From positions 1,140,001-1,172,000 of the forward strand of contig NC_005070.1 of assembly GCF_000195975.1 (NCBI RefSeq): a DNA stretch of 32,000 bases, given 5' to 3'. Below, piece by piece: positions 10,980 through 18,434 of this stretch. Position 1 is the first letter of the stretch; every line of letters starts with the position of its first letter. The stretch comes from Parasynechococcus marenigrum WH 8102 (lineage in GTDB: Bacteria > Cyanobacteriota > Cyanobacteriia > PCC-6307 > Cyanobiaceae). The notes beneath the pieces were generated by a model that ran no database searches, was not told the origin of the DNA, and worked only from the letters and a program-made list of their open reading frames with translations. The position numbers were made by a program, and so were the translations under genes.

Positions 10980-11699
10980 ATGATCTGGATTCAAGCCCTG
11001 CTGCTCAACACCGTCCTGATTGCTGTGGCCCAACGCGCCCCTCTGCTCACCCTTGCCGGCTGGGTTCATGCGGGTGCTCTGGGCACGATTCTCTGGGGTT
11101 GTCTCGGCTGGCGTGGATGGGTGGCTGTGGTGGCCTATCTGGTGCTGGGCAGCCTGGTGACCCGGCTCGGCCTGCGCGAGAAGCAGGAGCGTGGTCTGGC
11201 GGAGGCCCGAGGCGGCCGGCGTGGACCGGAAAATGTCTGGGGATCGGCAGCCACCGGTGCATGTCTCGCCCTCCTGATCGGCGCGGGTGTTGAACCCGGT
11301 CCATTGCTGTTGGTTGGATTCTCGGCAAGTTTTTCCGCCAAGCTGGCCGACACCTTCGGCAGCGAAATCGGCAAGCGCTGGGGCCGGCGGCCGGTGCTGA
11401 TCACAACCCTGCGTTCCGTGCCGCCTGGCACGGAAGGAGCCATCAGCCTGGCGGGAACCCTGGCCAGTGCCGCCGGCAGCGTGCTGATGACCCTGGTGAT
11501 GTGGCAGCTGCAACTGCTGCCATCGATCAGCGTCAGCCTGGTGGTGATGCTGATCGGTCTCCTGGCCACCCTGGCGGAGAGCCTGCTTGGGGCCCTCGCA
11601 CAGGATCGGTTCCGCTGGTTGAGCAATGAACTTGTGAATGCTCTGCAGACCTTGCTGGCCGCCGTTATGGCGATGCTGTGGCTTGGCGGCAGGATCTGA
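10980..11699 (+). CDS. integral membrane protein (multi-span; possibly DUF92/TMEM19-like)
   Basis: Repeated hydrophobic segments throughout. A longer alternative start is at 10929. The family name is from memory only. Confidence 0.6.
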   Translation: MIWIQALLLNTVLIAVAQRAPLLTLAGWVHAGALGTILWGCLGWRGWVAVVAYLVLGSLVTRLGLREKQERGLAEARGGRRGPENVWGSAATGACLALLIGAGVEPGPLLLVGFSASFSAKLADTFGSEIGKRWGRRPVLITTLRSVPPGTEGAISLAGTLASAAGSVLMTLVMWQLQLLPSISVSLVVMLIGLLATLAESLLGALAQDRFRWLSNELVNALQTLLAAVMAMLWLGGRI

Positions 11700-12111
11700 G
11701 CGGCAGCAGACCGTCCTGCTCCGCCCAGTGCTGCAAGAGCTCGATCGCGTTACGGATGGACTTGCGCAGCTGGTGTTGCGGCACGCCGGTGGCTGATGCG
11801 ATGCGTCGCACACTGTCCCCTTCGATGAAGTGCCGCTGCAACAGCTGCCGTTGCTGTGGCTTCAGCAACGCCAGGCCACGGTCCAGCCAGCGGTCCTCAA
11901 GATCGTCGTTCACCGGGTTGGTGGCCTGCTCATGGATGGCGCTGATGGGCACCATGCGTTGCGCTTGCTGACTGCTGCAGGCTTCCTGCCAGCGCTGAAT
12001 CGTGATGTTGAGAGCGTCCGCCAGACGAGCGTCCGACAGGGCCGGCCCACCACGTTGCATTTGCTCCTGCTGCATCGCCTGGCCTTTCACATAGGTGTCC
12101 CGCAGCCGCCT
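11665..12111 (-). pseudogene. sigma-70 family sigma factor, C-terminal half (regions 3-4), detached from its N-terminal half
   Basis: The frame is open from 12111 and reads RRLRDTYVKGQAMQQEQ...PALSDARLADALNIT... then the region-4 HTH LLKPQQRQLLQRHFIEGDSVRRIASATGVPQHQLRKSIRNAIELLQ. An in-frame TGA (12114-12112) sits immediately upstream, where GC content collapses. There is no region 2 and no native start. Confidence 0.85.
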
Positions 12112-12272
12112 TCAGAATGAAGCAGTTCGTGGTGGCTTTGGTGAAGACTGGAAAGCCTACGCTACAAAGAAGTTCCGTGAGGAAGTGACTCAATCATTGG
12201 TTGGTAGTCCAACTATTGGTATTGGTCAGAAAGGGCTAGTTACTGGTCCGTCTAAGCAAGTGGGTTCTAACT

Positions 12273-12596
12273 ATGCCTGCAAGTGAAGACGAGCTGTATT
12301 TGACCTGCAGCGCCTGCGGTTCCATACACACTATCTCAGATGCTGGAGACCTAGAGCTTGTAGAAGATAAGCGACCAGGTGCATCTGGTATTAATGGAAT
12401 CAAGACTACAACAGTAGGTGGTGATACCTGGCAGCAGGATAAATACATCGCTTCGGAACCACAGCAATACCAACCACCTATCACGATGATTGCTGGTGTC
12501 GCTGGTAAACAAAACCAAATCAAAGCAGACCAATCACTGCTAGAAGCATCAAACAAAGATTGGAAATCAAAGAATATCCCTACTGATTTAAAATGA
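12273..12596 (+). CDS. hypothetical protein (107 aa), first gene of coupled trio
   Basis: ATG ORF. Its stop overlaps the next start (ATGA at 12593-12596). It contains a single CSAC motif and has no recognisable family. Confidence 0.55.
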   Translation: MPASEDELYLTCSACGSIHTISDAGDLELVEDKRPGASGINGIKTTTVGGDTWQQDKYIASEPQQYQPPITMIAGVAGKQNQIKADQSLLEASNKDWKSKNIPTDLK

Positions 12597-13048
12597 CTTT
12601 TAACGACAACCACGATGCAGACAATAACGCTACTGCTAATCGAGTTCACTTTGATAGCCAGCTACCCGACATTAATCAACCTAAGAAAAGGAAGTTCACT
12701 GATGTCCTGCCTATCTTGCTGTCCTGTCGTGTTCGTTTGAATGATACACAACGGGAACAGCTGAAGAAGGTATGGCGTGACATTAGGGCTAACGAAGCAC
12801 CACAGCCTATGTCCAATCCAGGCTCCACAGTCCGTAGCTACTCAGCAGCTACTACCACCTCTGCTGAAAAGGCATTGAACACAAGTAGCCTTATCATCTC
12901 TGACTTAATCAGCACTAGAGATACCATTGCATTGACTACCATCATTGAGTTGGAACGAGTGTTTGGTATTGAGTTACTTAGCAAGGAAGCATTTATGGCT
13001 GCAGCCGAGAACTACTATCAATACAACAAAGAAGGTAGGTATGAGTGA
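12593..13048 (+). CDS. hypothetical protein (151 aa); C-terminus weakly HTH-like
   Basis: Translationally coupled on both sides. The C-terminal TIALTTIIELERVFGIELLSKEAF loosely resembles the end of an XRE-type HTH (weak). Confidence 0.55.
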   Translation: MTFNDNHDADNNATANRVHFDSQLPDINQPKKRKFTDVLPILLSCRVRLNDTQREQLKKVWRDIRANEAPQPMSNPGSTVRSYSAATTTSAEKALNTSSLIISDLISTRDTIALTTIIELERVFGIELLSKEAFMAAAENYYQYNKEGRYE

Positions 13049-13343
13049 TAACTACGGGAGTTCTTCTTATAGGCAGTTCAAACCTATCTCATCCACGCTG
13101 AAGGTATCAGCAGGTGAGGCTAAGAACCCTACTGCTAAGCAGCACCTCAATAAGCTGGACTTGCAGCCTCTTACAGAAATAAAGAGAGGAGATAGGTCTA
13201 GCACTCTTTGGAGTAAAAGAAAAGAACTTCAAGCCAAAGGTCAAAGCCTTGGCACCATTGAAACATCATCTATGTATGAACCCGATGCTCTAATTTACGA
13301 ATGTGAGCCAGATGACAACCATATTGATGAAGCAGTGTTCTAA
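13041..13343 (+). CDS. hypothetical protein (100 aa)
   Basis: The ATG at 13041 overlaps the upstream stop by 8 nt (tATGAGTGA). The longer ORF-track start at 12945 lies inside the previous gene. Confidence 0.5.
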   Translation: MSDNYGSSSYRQFKPISSTLKVSAGEAKNPTAKQHLNKLDLQPLTEIKRGDRSSTLWSKRKELQAKGQSLGTIETSSMYEPDALIYECEPDDNHIDEAVF

Positions 13344-13616
13344 CTCTGCTGGAGAGCCTAGCCTCCTCCTTGAATCTTATCTACGGATTCTAAATTGCTC
13401 AAGGCAAACCATTCAGGTTGGTGCATATACACTAACTAGATACTTGAACCTTTAGACTGTACATTCGCAACGTCCGGGATAAGGGTTCTTCAAAGCAGGG
13501 TATAGATACGGACTGAGGAAGGGTGGACCTCACGCTGGTAAGTTTTTTTCTAATTGTCTTGCCATATTTCTTCTAGGTGCAATTCCTAGACTTGCTTTTA
13601 AATACATACACACCAA

Positions 13617-13886
13617 ATGAATACCTACTCATACCTTAAAGCTAATATCGATTCACTATCTCAGCGTTGGCATGATGGACTGAAAGACTTACAAGATATA
13701 ACGCATCCACCATCGAGAGCAGAGCATATCGATTATCTAAATGAAGTTTATATTGAAGCCGCTGAGCTACATGAGTTATGCAGCCAAGAGCTTCACCCTG
13801 TTCTATTAACAAAGCTTGGTCATATTATCTCTAGAGACTTTGATCAACAAATCCAACTATACAAGAAAGTAACTAAAGCCAAATGA
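13617..13886 (+). CDS. hypothetical acidic helical protein (89 aa), first gene of second coupled trio
   Basis: ATG ORF. Its stop overlaps the next ATG (ATGA at 13883-13886). Confidence 0.55.
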   Translation: MNTYSYLKANIDSLSQRWHDGLKDLQDITHPPSRAEHIDYLNEVYIEAAELHELCSQELHPVLLTKLGHIISRDFDQQIQLYKKVTKAK

Positions 13887-14038
13887 ACTATCAACAGCAA
13901 CAGCAACCATTCCCTAAACAATCTAATACCTCTGAAGTTGATGAGATCCTTACCTTTGGTGGCAGTCAATCGTCAGCATTGCTCCAACGTATGCGTCAAC
14001 AAATGCTTGAGAAACTCTCCCAAAAATCAAAGTATTAA
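13883..14038 (+). CDS. unlisted 51-aa Gln-rich ORF (MNYQQQQQPFPKQSNTSEVDEILTFGGSQSSALLQRMRQQMLEKLSQKSKY)
   Basis: Below the ORF-track size cutoff; found by hand translation. It exactly fills the gap between 13886 and 14041, with an ATGA overlap upstream and a 2-nt spacer downstream. Confidence 0.5.
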   Translation: MNYQQQQQPFPKQSNTSEVDEILTFGGSQSSALLQRMRQQMLEKLSQKSKY

Positions 14039-14040
14039 TC

Positions 14041-14361
14041 ATGTATAACCAACCTTCCCGACATACAGGCAAACTCAAGAAAGCTGCTTCTAATCCCTTC
14101 ATTGGATCTGCATCTGGTGGTAGTTCACAAGAGATCAACACTGATGCTAATGGCATGATTTCAGCTTCTAATCCACGTCAAACGCCTTTCAGTCCTGCAT
14201 CAGAGCGTACGTTTGATATGTCTCAGTCAAAGGGTATGAACCAAGCTCAGCAATCCCGTGCAGCAGTTTCAATGCAAACACGTCATCAACAGCAAACGGA
14301 TCGATATATTCCTAAATTATTTCGACACGCTGGCTCTATGCGAATGAAACAGCATTTCTAA
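14041..14361 (+). CDS. hypothetical Ser/Gln-rich, probably disordered protein (106 aa)
   Basis: The ATG lies 2 nt after the preceding stop. Low-complexity polar composition. Confidence 0.5.
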   Translation: MYNQPSRHTGKLKKAASNPFIGSASGGSSQEINTDANGMISASNPRQTPFSPASERTFDMSQSKGMNQAQQSRAAVSMQTRHQQQTDRYIPKLFRHAGSMRMKQHF

Positions 14362-14548
14362 AAAAACAAGTACATCGTTAGATTGTTTCGCCTACAAACT
14401 AATATCGATAAGCGCCTTAAGCAGTCGACCAGGCGAATATAAAGGAATAAGGCTTTGTGGCTAATGAATTACTTTCTAGCATTAAAAATAATCTAAAAAC
14501 GAAGCCTTCACAGATCTACCAGTTTCTCAAGCTCTGCCAAATAAATTC

Positions 14549-14569
14549 AAAAAACAGTTCAAAGAACTG
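14549..14569 (-). terminator. intrinsic terminator after the radical SAM gene
   Basis: Minus-strand CAGTTC-TTT-GAACTG hairpin (14555-14569) followed by TTTTTT (14549-14554). It lies about 40 nt downstream of the stop at 14611. Confidence 0.6.
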
Positions 14570-14610
14570 AAACGCATTTAAAACCTCCAAAATTTCTTTA
14601 AAAATAAAGA

Positions 14611-15651
14611 CTATCTTTTAGGCAGCAGATCTTTGAAAGTAAGAGGTTGATAAAATTCACATTTTTTGCAAGGCGAAAGTTCTCCGCTGCTGAAATCATT
14701 AAGCACACTTTCTCTCCATTTACGCAAGGATGCGCGAAAGTTTTCATTATTTACGTTGCAAATTACCTGACTCAAGGAATAATCATGGCAACATATATTG
14801 ACATTGCCATTACCCAGCACAACTGGTTGGCTGCCAAACTTTTTGACAATACACTTTTTGGCAGGCAACGGAATCTCGAGCAGAATAATAGGCCTAAAAA
14901 ATACATAGATTCGCTTCAGCGATTGTTTTATCAGCGTAGCTACTTGAGACTTAGACTTATATTTCCATAACTTTCTAAAATAGAGTGAATCTACACCAGA
15001 AGACCTAGAGCTAAGTTTTCGATGGCGAGACATACCAGCAAAGAGATGAGACTTGTTGGCGAGTATTTCTTCTATTTGTGGATGAAAAGATGGTCCAAAA
15101 GTTAGAGCTCTTAGCTCTACTCCATTATGGCTAGATCTTTCAAAGTCGTCTAAAAATCTTGCCAAAGTAGTCAAGTAGCTATCATCAACTTGCAGCACGC
15201 CATCTTCCATTAATCCAGCATCATCAGGAAGATGCAAGCCAATACTTTTAAAAAAAGAAGGGTTATTTGCTATGAAATCTATATTATACGGAAATCCTGT
15301 AAGAGTGGTAGAAATTTGCTGCTCGAGCTTAAGATCTGCACAATGTTGAGCCATAGCCGAGAAGTCCTTATTAGCACAGGGTTCTGAATAGCCAGTCCAA
15401 TGGATATTGAGTGTGGGATAATCATGAAAATTTTTCAAGTAGCATTTAAAATTATCTAAAGTGATTGACTTATTGTTTATATTTTTGAACTTAAGGCTGG
15501 ATTTGCGCAATGTCTCCTGAGGACAATATTTACACCTAACACCACAAGCAGGTGTTGTTGTAAACTCAATATGATATTTACTGTCTTCATCTGAATCAAT
15601 AGAATGTTCTAAACTTTTTTGGCGAATGAAAGAAAGAATTTTTTCCTTCAT
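14611..15651 (-). CDS. radical SAM enzyme with Cys-rich C-terminal (SPASM/twitch-like) extension, 346 aa
   Basis: Canonical CxxxCxxC cluster motif ACGVRCKYCPQ near the N-terminus, and WTGYSEP in the position of the GGE SAM-binding motif. The C-terminus GNGNVNICCHDYSLSQVICNV...SPCKKCEFY resembles auxiliary-cluster domains. AAGGA Shine-Dalgarno about 8 nt upstream of the ATG. Confidence 0.8.
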   Translation of the reverse strand: MKEKILSFIRQKSLEHSIDSDEDSKYHIEFTTTPACGVRCKYCPQETLRKSSLKFKNINNKSITLDNFKCYLKNFHDYPTLNIHWTGYSEPCANKDFSAMAQHCADLKLEQQISTTLTGFPYNIDFIANNPSFFKSIGLHLPDDAGLMEDGVLQVDDSYLTTLARFLDDFERSSHNGVELRALTFGPSFHPQIEEILANKSHLFAGMSRHRKLSSRSSGVDSLYFRKLWKYKSKSQVATLIKQSLKRIYVFFRPIILLEIPLPAKKCIVKKFGSQPVVLGNGNVNICCHDYSLSQVICNVNNENFRASLRKWRESVLNDFSSGELSPCKKCEFYQPLTFKDLLPKR

Positions 15652-15889
15652 GACTATCCTTTTTACATATCATACCATTCGTCAATAGTTCTAGACGGGC
15701 AGGATAGACAATTCGGTAACTGTAACCTTGTGCGTAGAGAATACAGCAGGCTCTGGCACCCACCTATGACACCTTCTGGCACCTTAGAGACGGTATAGTA
15801 ATGGCATACGGGAGCAAGCAACAAGCTAAATATCAATAATGCACTGGCACTACTCAACGCAGATACTGCACATCAAATCACTACAAACC

Positions 15890-15905
15890 ATATTGACATA
15901 TTGAC
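15890..15905 (+). repeat. tandem 8-mer ATATTGAC x2, sharing the 11-mer ATTGACATATT with the right arm of the element
   Basis: Read directly. ATTGACATATT is at 15892-15902 and again at 18041-18051. The site lies about 240 nt upstream of the radical SAM start. Confidence 0.6.
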
Positions 15906-16100
15906 CACCAAACACAGCAAGAACTTTCTAGGGCGGCTGGATAATTAGTATAAGTTAGTTGCACGACACGAGCTTAAAAATAACGCCGAATCCTAGGCAT
16001 CATTCAATTCAGCAAGCAGTGCGATTACAGCACTCATAGACAAGCTATGATCAATGCATTCGCTGTCTTGCCTGATGCCTCATATACAACATAAGTGCAT

Positions 16101-16223
16101 ATGGAGTATAGACAAAAGCTAATCAAGCTACTAGCTGAACTACAAGCTAATAACAAATCTCCTGACATTATTGCGTCTGTTCAAAAAGCAATAGCAGAGA
16201 TAGATAAGAGACAGAACGACTGA
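16101..16223 (+). CDS. possible 40-aa helical ORF (MEYRQKLIKLLAELQANNKSPDIIASVQKAIAEIDKRQND)
   Basis: Hand-translated ATG ORF ending 44 nt before a hairpin plus T-run. No Shine-Dalgarno and no family. Confidence 0.3.
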   Translation: MEYRQKLIKLLAELQANNKSPDIIASVQKAIAEIDKRQND

Positions 16224-16266
16224 CACTCCTGGCATTGAGAGTCTTGCTCATCTAAGTCCAGGCATG

Positions 16267-16309
16267 GCAGTGAATGGCTGAAGGTTCGATTCCTTCCACT
16301 GCTGTTTTT
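16267..16309 (+). other. tRNA-derived minihelix (acceptor-like stem plus canonical T-arm) followed by a T-run; not a complete tRNA
   Basis: GCAGTG-AATGGCT-GAAGG-TTCGATT-CCTTC-CACTGC-TG-TTTTT. The T stem-loop GAAGGTTCGATTCCTTC matches the tRNA T-arm consensus. No D arm or anticodon arm could be built upstream. Confidence 0.55.
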
Positions 16310-16542
16310 CAAGACAAGACAACCTAATAACAACGACTATTTACAATAAAGAATACCTCAATGAGCTAATTAATTCTGGTATTGCTCTTAACGATAAAGA
16401 GACTGCAATTATAGAACAATACCTTTTCGACAACTCCGAATACTATTACCCAAAAGGCTACTCCATACCTTCTGATGTATTGAGCGATAAACGGCTCAAA
16501 CCACTGGCATCTGGTGCTGTTAAAAAGGCTAGGAGGCGTTGA
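16282..16542 (+). pseudogene. 86-codon open frame with no start codon, beginning inside the tRNA-like element and ending 1 nt before the HNH gene
   Basis: Hand translation: ...TTIYNKEYLNELINSGIALNDKETAIIEQYLFDNSEYYYPKGYSIPSDVLSDKRLKPLASGAVKKARRR*. It looks protein-like, but there is no ATG or GTG and only a late TTG. Possibly a 5'-truncated gene. Confidence 0.35.
16531..16536 (+). promoter_or_regulatory. Shine-Dalgarno AGGAGG for the HNH-like gene
   Basis: AGGAGG lies 7 nt upstream of the ATG at 16544. This supports 16544 rather than the GTG at 16514 as the start. Confidence 0.7.
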
Positions 16543-16543
16543 A

Positions 16544-17080
16544 ATGAAGAAGGTAATAGATACTGTTACTCATACAGATAAAAAAGGTAAAACAGTTAAA
16601 CAACACATTATTCAGTGTGATTCTTGCGGTAGACATACCAAGGCTCCAACCACTCCAAAAGCTCTAAGGAATAAACTTAATTCTCGTTGTGTTTGTGGTG
16701 TCCTTGGTTCAGCACCTCAATCCATACCTGAATGTCGCGGTCAAGATGGTAGAAGTTATCATCCTCTATATAATACTTACAAGGTCATGATTCAACGTTG
16801 CTATAATGAATCAGCTTTCTGCTATGAAAGATATGGTGGACGTGGTATCACTGTCTGCCAAGAATGGCTTAACGACTTCTGGATGTTTGTTTATCATATG
16901 GGTGAACGACCTGAAGGAAAAACTTTTGATAGAGTTGACAATGACTATATCTATTGTCCTGAAAACTGTCGTTGGGCTACTCCATTAGAGCAGGCTCATA
17001 ACAGGTCAAATCCGCCAATGACTGATGAAGAAGTAGAAGCTGCTATAGCACGTCAACGCCAATCAAAACGTGAATGGTAG
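16544..17080 (+). CDS. phage-type HNH-like nuclease-fold protein with N-terminal zinc ribbon (178 aa)
   Basis: CDSCGRH...CVCG zinc ribbon. YNTYKVMIQRCYNESAFCYERYGGRGITVCQEW followed by FDRVDNDYIYCPENCRWATPLEQAHNRS, a pattern I associate with free-standing phage HNH/AP2-like endonucleases. Confidence 0.65.
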   Translation: MKKVIDTVTHTDKKGKTVKQHIIQCDSCGRHTKAPTTPKALRNKLNSRCVCGVLGSAPQSIPECRGQDGRSYHPLYNTYKVMIQRCYNESAFCYERYGGRGITVCQEWLNDFWMFVYHMGERPEGKTFDRVDNDYIYCPENCRWATPLEQAHNRSNPPMTDEEVEAAIARQRQSKREW

Positions 17081-17569
17081 GAACGTAGCAAACATCTCTA
17101 CGAATGGTGTCCTCATAAAAGAACTTACATCAAGCTGTAGAAGCTCCTGTAAGGCTGTTTAGAGTGGTCTCTAGGGTATTTATCCTGTTGACCACTTTTA
17201 ACGGCTTCTAGGCTTATTTATGCACCAATAACCTAGTAAAAATACCAAAAAAAATAATTTCAAATGAAGTCGATAAGATTTGCCAGAGATGCGTCAGCCC
17301 ATATATCGATGGTATTGGGCGCAATTTCCTCCCCATGCACCCATCTAAGCGCTGGAGATTGGCGACTTGGGTGAAAACACACCTATGTATCGCGCGAGTG
17401 CGCCTGCGATATCTAGGCGCGGCTGAAGAGGTAACTAAATCAAACCTAGCCTTACGGACGGAAGTCACTACTTCTGCAGCTGGTGGTGGCTGCACAGCTG
17501 TAGGATTTTTTTGCACGCCAGACTGACAATCTAGGCGTAACTAGGTAGGCTTCAAGCTATGACTGGTTT

Positions 17570-17603
17570 GATTGATCAGCACATACTCAGTCACTGATCA
17601 ATC
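17570..17603. repeat. perfect 10-bp inverted repeat GATTGATCAG / CTGATCAATC with 14-nt spacer
   Basis: Read directly (17570-17579 and 17594-17603). It abuts the CATACCAACAT motif at 17604-17614. Confidence 0.8.
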
Positions 17604-18031
17604 CATACCAACATGGGTTGAGATAGCAGTGATGCAGTGAGCTGCTGCACTCACTATCGGACTGGTATGAATCAAGGGATGTAGGCACCGTGCTTACTGC
17701 TCATCCATGCTGTAGATGCCAAGCGGAGTTACGCACGGAGTGCAAGTAACGGAGCGGATACAACACTGTTGATATCTATCTAATGATTGTTATTATCTAC
17801 TTATATTGATTGCATCTGGTTTTATTGCTAACTGTTTTGTGCAATATTTATACTAAACCGTGCAATTTACGTGCCTTTTGCCCATATTTTAGTAGTGCAT
17901 CGGTAGCGAAAGAATAGAGAGCTAAATACTTGGCAAAGTATCACTAACTGTTCATTGGAAAACTAAAGAGTATTCATTCAATCCAGATGCACCGATCCTT
18001 GCTGACCTTGTATCGGCTTGGTATAGAGGCT

Positions 18032-18051
18032 CATACCAACATTGACATATT
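18032..18051 (+). repeat. composite 20-mer CATACCAACATTGACATATT whose halves recur elsewhere in the element
   Basis: CATACCAACAT is exact at 17604-17614 and 18032-18042. ATTGACATATT is exact at 15892-15902 and 18041-18051. Related (C)ATACCA / TGGTAT units are at 15671, 17663, 18018, 18064, 18075, 18091, and in opposite orientation at the left end (12197-12207, 12216-12222). Confidence 0.75.
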
Positions 18052-18131
18052 AACAGGGATCGACATACCAAGTCCATACCAGGCAGTGGGTATGGTGCAA
18101 ACGACAGACTGTCACTAGGGAGCTTGAAAAG

Positions 18132-18434
18132 CCAGGGCACCCGAATCGTGACGGCCCGATCGCGCCGGAAGTGAAGCACCTGTCCGTTGGTGGCCGTGCT
18201 CAGGAATGTTGAGAGTTTAAGACCGCGCCGTGGATCAAACCGCTCCCAGCCACGAATCAACCCAACACGGGCCTCCTGCTCGAGATCGTCCCGCTCCTTT
18301 GGTCCCCGTCGGGTCTGGCGCGAGGCAATCATCCCGGCGATGCCGAGGTGATTGAGAACCTTGATGTTGCGTTGGCGAACTGCAGGGGGAAGAGCCCTCC
18401 GCAGCTCACGTCGCTGCCATCCGGATGTGGTCAT
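18132..18434 (-). pseudogene. sigma-70 family sigma factor, N-terminal half (region 2), truncated by the insertion
   Basis: From the ATG at 18434: MTTSGWQRRELRRALPPAVRQRNIKVLNHLGIAGMIASRQ...DDLEQEARVGLIRGWERFDPRRGLKLSTFLSTATNGQVLHFRRDRAVTIRVPW. These are regions 2.1-2.4 (GLIxxxERFDPxxG, RDxxxxIRVP). The frame then runs into AT-rich island sequence for 59 unrelated codons, to the stop at 17952. Confidence 0.85.

What the first reader, a model, noticed from the sequence alone, without database searches (positions are those of the whole stretch)
14611..15651. Orphan radical SAM enzyme with Cys-rich C-terminus as island cargo
- The protein has CGVRCKYC (CxxxCxxC), a GGE-like YSEP, and the C-terminal segment ICCHDYSLSQVIC...CKKC. 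These resemble SPASM/twitch auxiliary-cluster domains used by peptide-modifying and other maturases.
- It stands alone on the minus strand, convergent with a trio of small unknown ORFs, and has its own Shine-Dalgarno and terminator.
- No obvious partner is adjacent: no precursor with a canonical start, no transporter, no protease. The substrate is therefore open. Candidates are a RiPP-like peptide among the small ORFs, a nucleotide, or an anti-phage function.
Basis: partly seen in the sequence, partly recalled or inferred. Interest (0 to 1): 0.65.

Follow-up and report, generated by a model that had tools for sequence, protein, structure and literature searches.

The report
Lone sugar-type radical SAM island gene
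A real, selectively maintained radical SAM enzyme with one extra iron-sulfur cluster (BtrN-like "Twitch" type) rides alone on a 6-kb foreign island that split a sigma-factor gene in a marine Synechococcus. Its relatives sit in cell-surface sugar gene clusters of SAR11 and Prochlorococcus, so it most likely modifies a surface carbohydrate, not a peptide or nucleotide.

Summary
Window 14611-15651(-) encodes a 346-aa radical SAM protein with CX3CX2C, a GGE-like GYSEP motif and a Cys-rich C-terminus. dN/dS is 0.14 against a 78% homolog.

Across 32 relatives (down to 23% identity) exactly four C-terminal Cys are invariant, plus G282: C267-x14-G282-x4-C287 and C328-x2-C331. That fits one auxiliary [4Fe-4S] cluster, a Twitch domain, and not a full two-cluster SPASM. 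The best solved relative is BtrN (profile E 1e-11), and its four Twitch-segment Cys align with these four.

No curated family, phage family or defence family claims the protein. Close homologs are very rare (3 in 5.8 billion), but a deep search finds 972 cluster representatives.

In 51 marine loci, 38 have sugar-pathway genes within four genes. These include NAD-epimerases, CMP-sugar cytidylyltransferases, SDR, Gfo/Idh/MocA, NeuB, DegT, Rml genes, glycosyltransferases and sulfotransferases. Packing is operon-like, and four loci add an MTA-nucleosidase-like gene. RiPP, anSME and viperin-like readings fail their tests.

In the window the gene is solitary cargo of a 6,020-bp low-GC insert (12111-18130). 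The insert splits a type III sigma-factor gene that is intact in Synechococcus sp. A18-46.1.

Best reading: a carbohydrate-modifying Twitch radical SAM enzyme (dehydrogenase or epimerase type). It is a new member of a known kind and of moderate interest.

The parts
14611..15651 (-). Radical SAM / Twitch-domain protein gene, 346 aa
   Evidence: ORF. Homologs at 78% and 45% identity. dN/dS 0.14. Family of 972 representatives. AF2 pLDDT 89.9. BtrN is the best PDB relative.
15523..15546 (-). CX3CX2C motif (C36, C40, C43) for the SAM-binding [4Fe-4S] cluster
   Evidence: Invariant in 32 of 32 sequences. Aligns with BtrN C16/C20/C23 (PMC9012708).
15379..15393 (-). GYSEP motif (residues 87-91), the GGE-motif equivalent
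   Evidence: E90 is invariant and G87 nearly so. Aligns with BtrN 'FYGEP'.
14659..14853 (-). Twitch (truncated SPASM) domain core: C267-x14-G282-x4-C287 ... C328-x2-C331
   Evidence: The four Cys and G282 are invariant in 32 of 32 sequences. They align with the only four Cys of BtrN segment 163-239. PF13186 is above its cutoff in relatives L005 and L006 and hits 18 of 32 members at E<=1e-3.
15657..15661 (-). Shine-Dalgarno-like AAGGA, 5 nt upstream of the ATG
   Evidence: Read from the sequence. A consensus match only.
14545..14569 (-). Weak terminator-like hairpin (CAGTTC-TTT-GAACTG) plus T-run, starting about 40 nt after the stop
   Evidence: Pattern scan. A consensus match only.
12111..18130 (.). 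6,020-bp low-GC insert (genomic island) carrying the gene. A 3-bp GGC is present at both ends. No integrase, transposase or terminal inverted repeats.
   Evidence: blastn against the uninterrupted locus of Synechococcus sp. A18-46.1. GC profile. Repeats.
18131..18434 (-). 5' fragment of the split type III sigma-factor gene (region 2). In this strain it reads on into island DNA as far as 17952.
   Evidence: Pfam Sigma70_r2. The rejoined protein is 95% identical over 100% of its length to the intact 248-aa protein P0158. Junction mapped.
11665..12110 (-). 3' fragment of the split type III sigma-factor gene (regions 3 and 4)
   Evidence: Pfam Sigma70_r4 and r4_2, both below gathering cutoffs..
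16514..17080 (+). Phage-type HNH endonuclease gene inside the island (188 aa)
   Evidence: PHROG phrog_374, E 4e-40, and related HNH families. No Pfam hit.
13617..14361 (+). Three small ORFs (89, 51 and 106 aa) convergent with the rSAM. Unknown, and not linked to the rSAM family.
   Evidence: No Pfam or PHROG hit. No homolog in any related locus.

Best explanation
The gene encodes a Twitch-domain radical SAM enzyme of an uncharacterised marine family. Its most likely substrate is a carbohydrate: a nucleotide-sugar, a nonulosonic-acid intermediate or a surface glycan.

Proposed mechanism:
1. Shown from sequence: C36/C40/C43 and the GYSEP motif are the standard elements that hold the [4Fe-4S] cluster and SAM.
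2. Inferred from the superfamily: reductive cleavage of SAM gives a 5'-deoxyadenosyl radical. That radical abstracts a hydrogen from a sugar C-H.
3. Inferred from BtrN: the substrate radical passes an electron to an auxiliary [4Fe-4S] cluster fully ligated by C267, C287, C328 and C331. This yields a keto-sugar, which is a two-electron dehydrogenation.
4. Alternative to step 3: the radical is re-quenched from the opposite face, which gives epimerisation. C288 is a candidate H-donor.

In SAR11 and Prochlorococcus the gene works inside operon-like sugar clusters. There a keto-sugar could be aminated, reduced or transferred by the neighbouring enzymes. In several loci an MTA-nucleosidase-like enzyme, sometimes with Apt, is on hand to recycle the inhibitory 5'-deoxyadenosine.

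In this Synechococcus the gene arrived alone on a 6-kb low-GC island. It would act on a sugar the host already makes. A changed cell surface is the plausible benefit.
For: Fold and cofactor sites:
- Seven Cys and G282 are invariant in 32 sequences down to 23% identity.
- C267-x14-G282-x4-C287 fits the SPASM/Twitch signature, and there is no second-cluster motif.
- The family profile hits BtrN at E 1.1e-11 over both domains. BtrN's RS Cys and its four Twitch-segment Cys align column for column.
- BtrN is a Twitch enzyme with a four-Cys auxiliary cluster. It performs a two-electron oxidation of an aminocyclitol (PMC9012708).
- Foldseek on the pLDDT-90 model returns BtrN (TMt 0.61-0.65) together with the sugar enzymes BlsE, DesII and AbmM, among generic SPASM/Twitch hits.

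Genomic context:
- 38 of 51 marine loci (35 of 47 with at least three neighbours) have sugar-pathway genes within four genes.
- Counts by family: NAD-epimerase/dehydratase 20 loci, CMP-sugar cytidylyltransferase 13, SDR 12, Gfo/Idh/MocA 12+4, ABC exporter 8, NeuB 6, DegT 5, CBS-NTP-transferase 5, UDP-GlcNAc 2-epimerase 4.
- 70 of 86 adjacent genes are co-directional. The median gap is about 10 nt and 18 pairs overlap.
- The window's own sub-clade is also glycan-embedded. Its neighbours include Capsule_synth, GT4, RmlB/C/D, GT1/GT4, TPR-sulfotransferase and Gfo/Idh/MocA.
- A distant cyanophage relative is fused to an FkbM methyltransferase and sits next to a mannosyltransferase.
- PNP_UDP_1 (MTA-nucleosidase-like) neighbours occur in 4 loci, two of them with Apt.

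Selection: dN/dS is 0.14.
Against: - No biochemical evidence exists. The substrate is inferred from context and from a relative that shares only about 13% identity in the structural alignment.
- The window copy and its closest homolog (L001/L002, next to an integrase) have no sugar genes nearby.
- The richest nonulosonic-acid contexts belong to clades only about 30% identical to the window protein.
- More distant relatives (23-27%) on rhizobial megaplasmids sit beside hydrogenase and nif genes. The wider group is therefore not uniformly glycan-linked.
- Foldseek's top hit is a RiPP enzyme (SuiB), and TM-scores are only 0.45-0.65.
- The neighbourhood statistics have no formal genome-background control. 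They rest on my own ORF calling and on one Pfam-scanned representative per cluster.
- Expression in this host is unknown.
Confidence: 0.55

Rival explanations
1. It is a RiPP maturase (a SPASM/Twitch peptide-modifying enzyme) acting on a small peptide encoded nearby, for example one of the convergent small ORFs.
For: SuiB, CteB and SkfB are among the Foldseek hits. Weak NCBIfam hits reach RiPP maturase models. Small unknown ORFs lie next to the gene.
Against: - Only 25 residues precede the first barrel strand, which leaves no room for an RRE domain.
- There is a single four-Cys auxiliary site.
- None of the window's small ORFs has a homolog in any of the 69 loci held at that point.
- The closest homolog shares only the rSAM ORF itself with the window.
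- No protease or precursor pattern appears in 51 neighbourhoods.
- All RiPP models score far below their cutoffs.
Confidence: 0.05
2. It is an anti-phage or nucleotide-modifying radical SAM enzyme (viperin-like or similar), carried as a defence cargo gene.
For: It sits on a strain-specific island together with a phage-type HNH endonuclease. Viperins appear low in the Foldseek list. Islands in marine cyanobacteria often carry defence genes (general knowledge).
Against: - No PADLOC model matches.
- The viperin model NF038283 scores 11.8 bits against a cutoff of 180.
- As far as I know, viperins have no auxiliary cluster, while this family has an invariant one.
- The relatives' neighbours are sugar-pathway genes, not defence genes.
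Confidence: 0.07
3. It is a protein or cofactor maturase: an anSME-like formylglycine generator for a sulfatase, or a metallocofactor accessory factor.
For: - PF00884 'Sulfatase' genes lie within two genes of the rSAM (positions -1 or +2) in 4 loci.
- anSMEcpe is among the Foldseek hits.
- Rhizobial relatives lie beside hup/hyp and nifB/nifZ genes.
- There are weak hits to the tungsten-cofactor maturase and MoaA models.
Against: - The sulfatase-family neighbours have no C/S-x-P/A-x-R motif. They carry an 'SVTHNT' site, which from memory looks like the Thr-type site of LtaS/EptA.
- anSMEs bind two auxiliary clusters, and this family has one (PMC9012708).
- MoaA's auxiliary cluster has three Cys with an open Fe site. 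Here four Cys are invariant.
- All the model scores are 10 to 20 times below their cutoffs.
- No sulfatase or metalloenzyme gene lies in the island.
Confidence: 0.1
4. In this host the gene is a functionless hitch-hiker. It is an intact cassette that was selected elsewhere but has no substrate, or is not expressed, in this Synechococcus.
For: - It is solitary, while relatives are operon-embedded.
- The island is strain-specific and recent. The flanks are 98-99% identical to a genome that lacks it.
- The gene's GC is 37% against a host at 62%.
- The island disrupted a host gene.
Against: - The ORF is intact.
- It has SD-like and terminator-like signals.
- The 78% homolog is also solitary in another high-GC host, next to an integrase, with dS of about 1 and dN/dS of 0.14. 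The single-gene cassette has therefore persisted under purifying selection across at least two such contexts.
Confidence: 0.2

Closest known systems
BtrN (2-deoxy-scyllo-inosamine dehydrogenase, butirosin pathway; PDB 4M7T/4M7S)
   Same: Both have a CX3CX2C radical SAM core and a GGE-type motif. Both have a C-terminal Twitch domain with a single auxiliary [4Fe-4S] site of four Cys, and all four Cys align. Both are compact single-chain enzymes without an RRE. BtrN has a carbohydrate-type substrate, which matches the context inferred here. It is the best sequence-profile hit in the PDB (E 1e-11) and has the best target-normalised TM-score (0.61-0.65).
   Different: Identity is only about 13% in the structural alignment. 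This protein is roughly 80-100 residues longer (BtrN chains are 214-270 residues), and its own clade carries an extra 25-40-residue insertion before C267. The genomic setting is marine surface-glycan clusters or an island, not an aminoglycoside pathway. The reaction is untested.
Other carbohydrate-modifying radical SAM enzymes: DesII (PDB 8HZV), BlsE (7VOB), AbmM (8WM2). From memory, also the Twitch epimerases NeoN and HygY and the dehydratase AprD4.
   Same: All use radical H-abstraction on sugars or nucleoside sugars. DesII, BlsE and AbmM appear among the top Foldseek hits. The sugar-cluster context is shared.
   Different: None is detected at sequence level. Similarity to NeoN, HygY and AprD4 was not tested here because I had no sequences for them. 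Their mention is a lead from memory.
SPASM-domain RiPP maturases and anSMEs (SuiB, CteB, PqqE, anSMEcpe)
   Same: They share the radical SAM core plus the first half of the SPASM fold. They are the top Foldseek hits by E-value. Pfam PF13186 matches family members.
   Different: Those enzymes bind two auxiliary clusters using 7-8 Cys, and most have an N-terminal RRE or a peptide-binding surface. This family has one four-Cys site, no RRE, and no precursor or FGly-type sulfatase partner.
NCBIfam TIGR04321 spiro-SPASM, and the TIGR04317 tungsten-cofactor maturase
   Same: These are the best curated-model hits, covering the N-terminal radical SAM core. 30 and 23 of the 32 family members hit them weakly.
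   Different: The scores are 31.6 against a cutoff of 250, and 18.9 against 380. Only the core region aligns. The protein is not a member of either.
Strain-specific genomic islands of marine picocyanobacteria
   Same: It is a low-GC, strain-specific insert that carries unknown ORFs, a phage-type HNH endonuclease and one probable surface-glycan enzyme gene. The closest homolog lies next to a tyrosine integrase.
   Different: It is not at a tRNA gene. It has no integrase, and it inserted inside a coding gene (a type III sigma factor) with only a 3-bp duplication.

Membership tests
Radical SAM superfamily | CX3CX2C motif for the SAM-binding [4Fe-4S] cluster | tested here: met
   C36-x3-C40-x2-C43 is invariant in 32 of 32 sequences and aligns with BtrN C16/C20/C23.
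Radical SAM superfamily | GGE-type SAM-binding motif and a partial TIM-barrel fold | tested here: met
   GYSEP, with invariant E90, aligns with BtrN FYGEP. The AF2 model (pLDDT 89.9) matches radical SAM structures with Foldseek probability 1.0.
Radical SAM superfamily | Pfam PF04055 at or above its gathering score | tested here: inconclusive
   The window protein scores 21.5 bits against a cutoff of 29.5. Relative L005 scores 30.3, which passes. 20 of 32 members hit at E<=1e-3.
SPASM/Twitch auxiliary-cluster domain | CX9-15GX4C motif followed by C-terminal Cys that complete a [4Fe-4S] site | tested here: met
   C267-x14-G282-x4-C287 and C328-x2-C331 are all invariant. PF13186 passes its cutoff in L005 (28.0 bits) and L006 (27.2 bits) against 21.5. 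The window protein itself scores only 13.4. The motif definition is from my own knowledge of the SPASM literature.
Full SPASM domain (two auxiliary clusters) | A second cluster motif (CX2CX5CX3C) giving 7-8 conserved Cys | tested here: not met
   Only four C-terminal Cys are invariant. C288 is found in 26 of 32 sequences and C298 in 3 of 32. It is therefore Twitch-type (definition in PMC9012708).
BtrN-type Twitch dehydrogenase | Auxiliary cluster fully ligated by four Cys at positions equivalent to BtrN's | tested here: met
   The four Cys in BtrN segment 163-239 align with C267, C287, C328 and C331. BtrN's auxiliary cluster is ligated by four Cys.
BtrN-type Twitch dehydrogenase | Two-electron oxidation of a secondary alcohol on a sugar or cyclitol | not testable with these tools
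   This needs an anaerobic enzyme assay.
RiPP radical SAM maturase | RRE or peptide-binding domain, plus an adjacent conserved precursor peptide | tested here: not met
   The first barrel strand starts at residue 26. The small ORFs are not conserved with the family. No precursor pattern appears in 51 loci.
Anaerobic sulfatase-maturating enzyme (anSME) | Two auxiliary clusters, plus a partner sulfatase with a C/S-x-P/A-x-R motif | tested here: not met
   There is one auxiliary site. The four neighbouring PF00884 proteins lack the motif.
Prokaryotic viperin / known defence systems | Match to the viperin equivalog model or to any PADLOC model | tested here: not met
   NF038283 scores 11.8 bits against a cutoff of 180. 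PADLOC gives no hit.
MoaA (GTP 3',8-cyclase) | TIGR02666 equivalog score; an auxiliary cluster with three Cys and an open Fe site | tested here: not met
   The score is 20.8 bits against a cutoff of 284. Four Cys are invariant here, while MoaA has three.
Phage-encoded auxiliary gene (cyanophage cargo) | Presence of the gene or island in phage genomes or viral contigs | tested here: not met
   No relative was found in IMG/VR. The island has no DNA match in 50,697 phage records. No PHROG family matches. There is one 25.6% tblastn match, in Synechococcus phage DSL-LC02.

The most novel reading that the evidence does not exclude
This is the mobile, single-gene form of an undescribed family of Twitch radical SAM enzymes. 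On this reading the family carries out a new radical modification (oxidation, epimerisation or deoxygenation) of nonulosonic acids or other surface sugars in the ocean's most abundant bacteria: SAR11, Prochlorococcus and Synechococcus. As a stand-alone cassette it would redecorate an existing surface glycan. That would change susceptibility to phages or grazers, here at the price of knocking out a type III sigma factor.
Probability: 0.3. Interest if true: 0.65.

Novelty: new member of a known kind. Interest (0 to 1): 0.42.

Why it matters
If the assignment is right, it points to an unstudied radical enzyme family inside the hypervariable cell-surface glycan regions of SAR11 and marine picocyanobacteria. 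Those regions are thought to govern phage and grazer interactions in the ocean. Radical SAM chemistry on nonulosonic acids or related surface sugars has, as far as I could find, not been described.

The family is compact, at about 300-350 aa with one auxiliary cluster. Several of its loci add a 5'-deoxyadenosine salvage module, so it looks tractable for biochemistry.

The window also gives a clean natural experiment. Two Synechococcus genomes are 98-99% identical across this locus. They differ by a 6-kb island that both adds this enzyme and disrupts a sigma-factor gene.

Tried and rejected
- **Direct family assignment.** Pfam, NCBIfam, PHROGs and PADLOC gave only sub-threshold radical SAM and SPASM hits, and no specific family. 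A single-sequence PDB search found nothing.
- **First AlphaFold run.** With three sequences the model was unusable, at pLDDT 50. Only the 32-sequence alignment worked.
- **Word-indexed homolog search.** It found 3 proteins for the single query and 11 for the profile. The exhaustive HMM search was needed to see the family.
- **Viral origin.** The IMG/VR scan was negative. Island DNA against phages was negative.
- **RiPP reading.** Rejected for lack of an RRE, a second cluster or conserved small ORFs.
- **anSME reading.** Rejected because the neighbouring PF00884 proteins lack the FGly motif.
- **tRNA-like fragment.** A T-arm-like fragment (GGTTCGATTCC, about 16280-16300) looked like an att remnant. 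ARAGORN and Rfam do not call it a tRNA.
- **Island ends.** No flanking direct repeats longer than 3 bp and no terminal inverted repeats were found.
- **The ~320-aa immediate neighbour (14 loci).** It has an invariant DxD but no Pfam or PDB match. Its similarity to L003's DxD protein is not significant (hhalign probability 2%). 'Glycosyltransferase-like' stays a guess.
- **Rhizobial plasmid relatives.** I checked these as an independent annotated test. They did not show sugar contexts.
- **Literature.** Searches found no description of the family.
Full report
**1. The observation**

Window 14611-15651 (minus strand) is an intact 346-aa ORF.
- CGVRCKYC at residues 36-43.
- YSEP at residues 88-91, inside HWTGYSEP.
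- ICCHDYSLSQVIC at residues 286-298.
- CKKC at residues 328-331.

It lies in a low-GC stretch, about 40% against about 62% in the flanks. It is convergent with three small + strand ORFs. It is preceded by an AAGGA and followed by a weak hairpin plus T-run.

It is a real gene:
- A 78% homolog and a 45% homolog exist in marine metagenomes.
- Nei-Gojobori dN/dS against the 78% homolog is 0.14, with dS of about 1.
- An exhaustive profile search of 1.84 billion cluster representatives finds 972 at E<=1e-3 and 32 at E<=1e-30.

**2. What the protein is**

The window protein's own Pfam scores are below the gathering cutoffs: Radical_SAM 21.5 against 29.5 bits, and SPASM 13.4 against 21.5 bits. No NCBIfam model comes near its cutoff. 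The best is spiro-SPASM at 31.6 bits against 250.

Relatives at 30-34% identity do pass the Pfam cutoffs for both domains.

In a 32-sequence alignment reaching 23% identity, the invariant Cys are C36, C40 and C43, plus C267, C287, C328 and C331, with G282 also invariant. That gives C267-x14-G282-x4-C287 ... C328-x2-C331.

C288 is found in 26 of 32 sequences, C92 in 12 of 32, and C298 in 3 of 32.

Four invariant Cys fit one auxiliary [4Fe-4S] cluster. That makes it a Twitch domain, not a two-cluster SPASM domain (definitions in PMC9012708).

The family profile hits BtrN in the PDB at E 1.1e-11 over both domains. BtrN's C16/C20/C23 and the only four Cys in its segment 163-239 fall on the family's invariant Cys columns. 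BtrN's auxiliary cluster is ligated by four Cys. [quoted passage not shown]

With the 32-sequence alignment, AlphaFold2 gives pLDDT 89.9 and pTM 0.87. Foldseek then returns SPASM/Twitch enzymes. They are SuiB, BtrN (TMt 0.61-0.65), BlsE, DesII, CteB, anSMEcpe, EpeE, AbmM, viperin and MoaA. TM-scores are moderate, so the protein has no close structural relative.

The barrel starts at residue 26, which leaves no room for an RRE domain.

**3. Context of relatives**

Close relatives are very rare, with 3 hits in 5.8 billion proteins.

The 78% homolog (L001/L002) shares only the ORF itself with the window. The flanks are unrelated. It lies next to a tyrosine integrase in high-GC DNA.

The 45% homolog (L003) lies between Apt, a PNP_UDP_1 MTA-nucleosidase-like gene and a DxD protein.

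Genome and metagenome scans gave further loci from Pelagibacteraceae and Prochlorococcus single-cell genomes, plus 54 marine contigs. I called ORFs within four genes of the rSAM in 51 loci, clustered them, and scanned one representative per cluster against Pfam.

| Neighbour family | Loci (of 51) |
|---|---|
| NAD-epimerase/dehydratase | 20 |
| Unknown ~320-aa DxD protein, usually immediately adjacent | 14 |
| CMP-sugar cytidylyltransferase | 13 |
| SDR | 12 |
| Gfo/Idh/MocA (two clusters) | 12 + 4 |
| ABC exporter | 8 |
| NeuB | 6 |
| DegT aminotransferase | 5 |
| CBS-NTP-transferase | 5 |
| UDP-GlcNAc 2-epimerase | 4 |
| Hexapeptide acetyltransferase | 4 |
| UDP-glucose dehydrogenase | 4 |
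| LtaS-like 'sulfatase' | 4 |
| PNP_UDP_1 (MTA-nucleosidase-like) | 4 |
| TPR-sulfotransferase | 3 |

In total, 38 of 51 loci have at least one sugar-pathway neighbour. Among adjacent genes, 70 of 86 are co-directional, with a median gap of about 10 nt and 18 overlaps.

From my own knowledge, this gene set resembles legionaminic- or pseudaminic-type nonulosonic-acid clusters.

A crude NJ tree puts the window protein in a sub-clade with L001, L003 and L014, next to L016, L006, L056 and L008. That sub-clade is also glycan-embedded. Its neighbours include Capsule_synth, a SAM methyltransferase, GT4, RmlB/C/D, GT1/GT4, TPR-sulfotransferases and Gfo/Idh/MocA.

A 25.6% relative in Synechococcus phage DSL-LC02 is fused to an FkbM methyltransferase. 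It sits beside a mannosyltransferase, between tail-fibre genes.

There is counter-evidence. Relatives at 23-27% identity on rhizobial megaplasmids lie beside hydrogenase and nif genes. The carbohydrate association should therefore be claimed for the marine clades only.

**4. The island**

The two high-GC ORFs bracketing the low-GC stretch carry sigma-70 region 2 (passing Pfam's cutoff) and region 4 (below it).

I rejoined them in silico. The result is 95% identical over 100% of its length to an intact 248-aa 'RNA polymerase sigma factor, type III' of Synechococcus sp. A18-46.1.

blastn of that uninterrupted locus against the window gives two collinear blocks, at 98.9% and 98.0% identity. They end at window 18131 and 12110 and overlap by 3 bp, GGC.

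The insert is therefore window 12111-18130, 6,020 bp. It splits the sigma gene between 'IRVPW' and 'RRLRDTYV'.

The island has no integrase, no transposase and no terminal inverted repeats. Its contents are:
- the rSAM;
- a phage-type HNH endonuclease;
- small ORFs with no homolog in any library or related locus.

It has no DNA match in phage records.

**5. Mechanism**

Shown:
- The cluster-binding and SAM-binding motifs.
- The single four-Cys auxiliary site that aligns with BtrN's.
- Purifying selection.
- The glycan-cluster context of the marine relatives.

Inferred:
- SAM cleavage produces a 5'-deoxyadenosyl radical.
- That radical abstracts an H atom from a sugar carbon.
- The auxiliary cluster then oxidises the substrate radical, giving a BtrN-type dehydrogenation to a keto-sugar. 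The neighbouring aminotransferases, reductases and transferases could process that product.
- Alternatively, a Cys re-donates the H atom, giving epimerisation. C288 is the candidate donor.
- The MTA-nucleosidase-like neighbours, sometimes with Apt, fit removal of the inhibitory 5'-deoxyadenosine. That role is established for Pfs-type nucleosidases, from my own knowledge.

In this Synechococcus the solitary gene would have to act on a host-made sugar. I put 0.55 on 'carbohydrate-modifying Twitch radical SAM'. I put much less on any specific reaction.

**6. Rivals**

- **RiPP maturase (0.05).** Fails on RRE, second cluster and precursor.
- **Defence or nucleotide enzyme (0.07).** No PADLOC or viperin support.
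- **anSME or cofactor maturase (0.10).** One cluster only, and the neighbouring PF00884 proteins lack the formylglycine motif. The rhizobial contexts keep a maturase role alive for distant relatives.
- **Functionless hitch-hiker in this host (0.20).** This can't be excluded, and it doesn't conflict with the enzymology.

**7. Verdict**

The proposed substrates are not supported.

The protein is a new member of the known Twitch radical SAM kind. It belongs to an undescribed marine family linked to surface-sugar clusters. No paper in the searchable library describes the family.

Interest is moderate, at 0.42. The chemistry class is known. The family, its setting in the flexible glycan regions of the ocean's dominant bacteria, and the single-gene mobile form are worth an experiment.

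Noticed in passing
window 11665-12110 and 18131-18434 (minus strand); insert 12111-18130: The low-GC island is inserted inside a type III sigma-factor gene. The rejoined halves are 95% identical, over full length, to the intact 248-aa protein of Synechococcus sp. A18-46.1. That genome is 98-99% identical on both flanks and lacks the island. A 3-bp GGC is duplicated at the junctions, and the island carries no recombinase.
   Followed up: yes
window 16514-17080 (+): A 188-aa phage-type HNH endonuclease (phrog_374, E 4e-40) with no Pfam hit. It is the only other recognisable gene in the island. Whether it played a part in the island's mobility is unknown.
   Followed up: partly
window about 16262-16300 (+): A tRNA T-arm-like fragment (GAAGGTTCGATTCCTTCCACTGCTG) sits inside the island. 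Neither ARAGORN nor Rfam calls it a tRNA. It could be a decayed att or tRNA remnant, or chance.
   Followed up: partly
L003 355-1143, L014 3296-4123, L016 6398-7180, L064 2599-3363 (with Apt at L003 2-304 and L016 7307-7822): PNP_UDP_1 (MTA/SAH-nucleosidase-like) genes lie within two genes of the rSAM in four loci, three of them in or next to the window's sub-clade. Two of these also have adenine phosphoribosyltransferase. This looks like a dedicated 5'-deoxyadenosine salvage module for the radical SAM enzyme.
   Followed up: partly
L005 7486-8427, L007 10874-11830 and 12 other loci (alignment A4): An unknown ~320-aa protein family with an invariant DxD is the most frequent immediate neighbour of the rSAM (14 loci). 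It has no Pfam or PDB match. It may be a novel glycosyltransferase and a functional partner.
   Followed up: partly
L069 (Synechococcus phage DSL-LC02, record 48456-50609): A 717-aa cyanophage protein annotated 'FkbM family methyltransferase' carries a distant relative of this rSAM/Twitch module at its C-terminus. It sits next to a beta-mannosyltransferase, between tail-fibre and collagen-like genes. This hints at phage-encoded glycan or tail-fibre modification.
   Followed up: no
L070 (S. terangae pCB3126_2) and L071 (Bradyrhizobium sp. 187 p187_1): Relatives at 23-27% identity on rhizobial symbiosis megaplasmids lie directly downstream of hup/hyp hydrogenase genes and of nifB-fdx-nifZ genes. 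A different, uncharacterised role may exist in that branch.
   Followed up: no
window 17952-18130 (minus strand): The truncated sigma-factor 5' fragment reads on into island DNA for a further 59 codons before a stop. If expressed, a region-2-only sigma fragment with a novel tail would be made.
   Followed up: no
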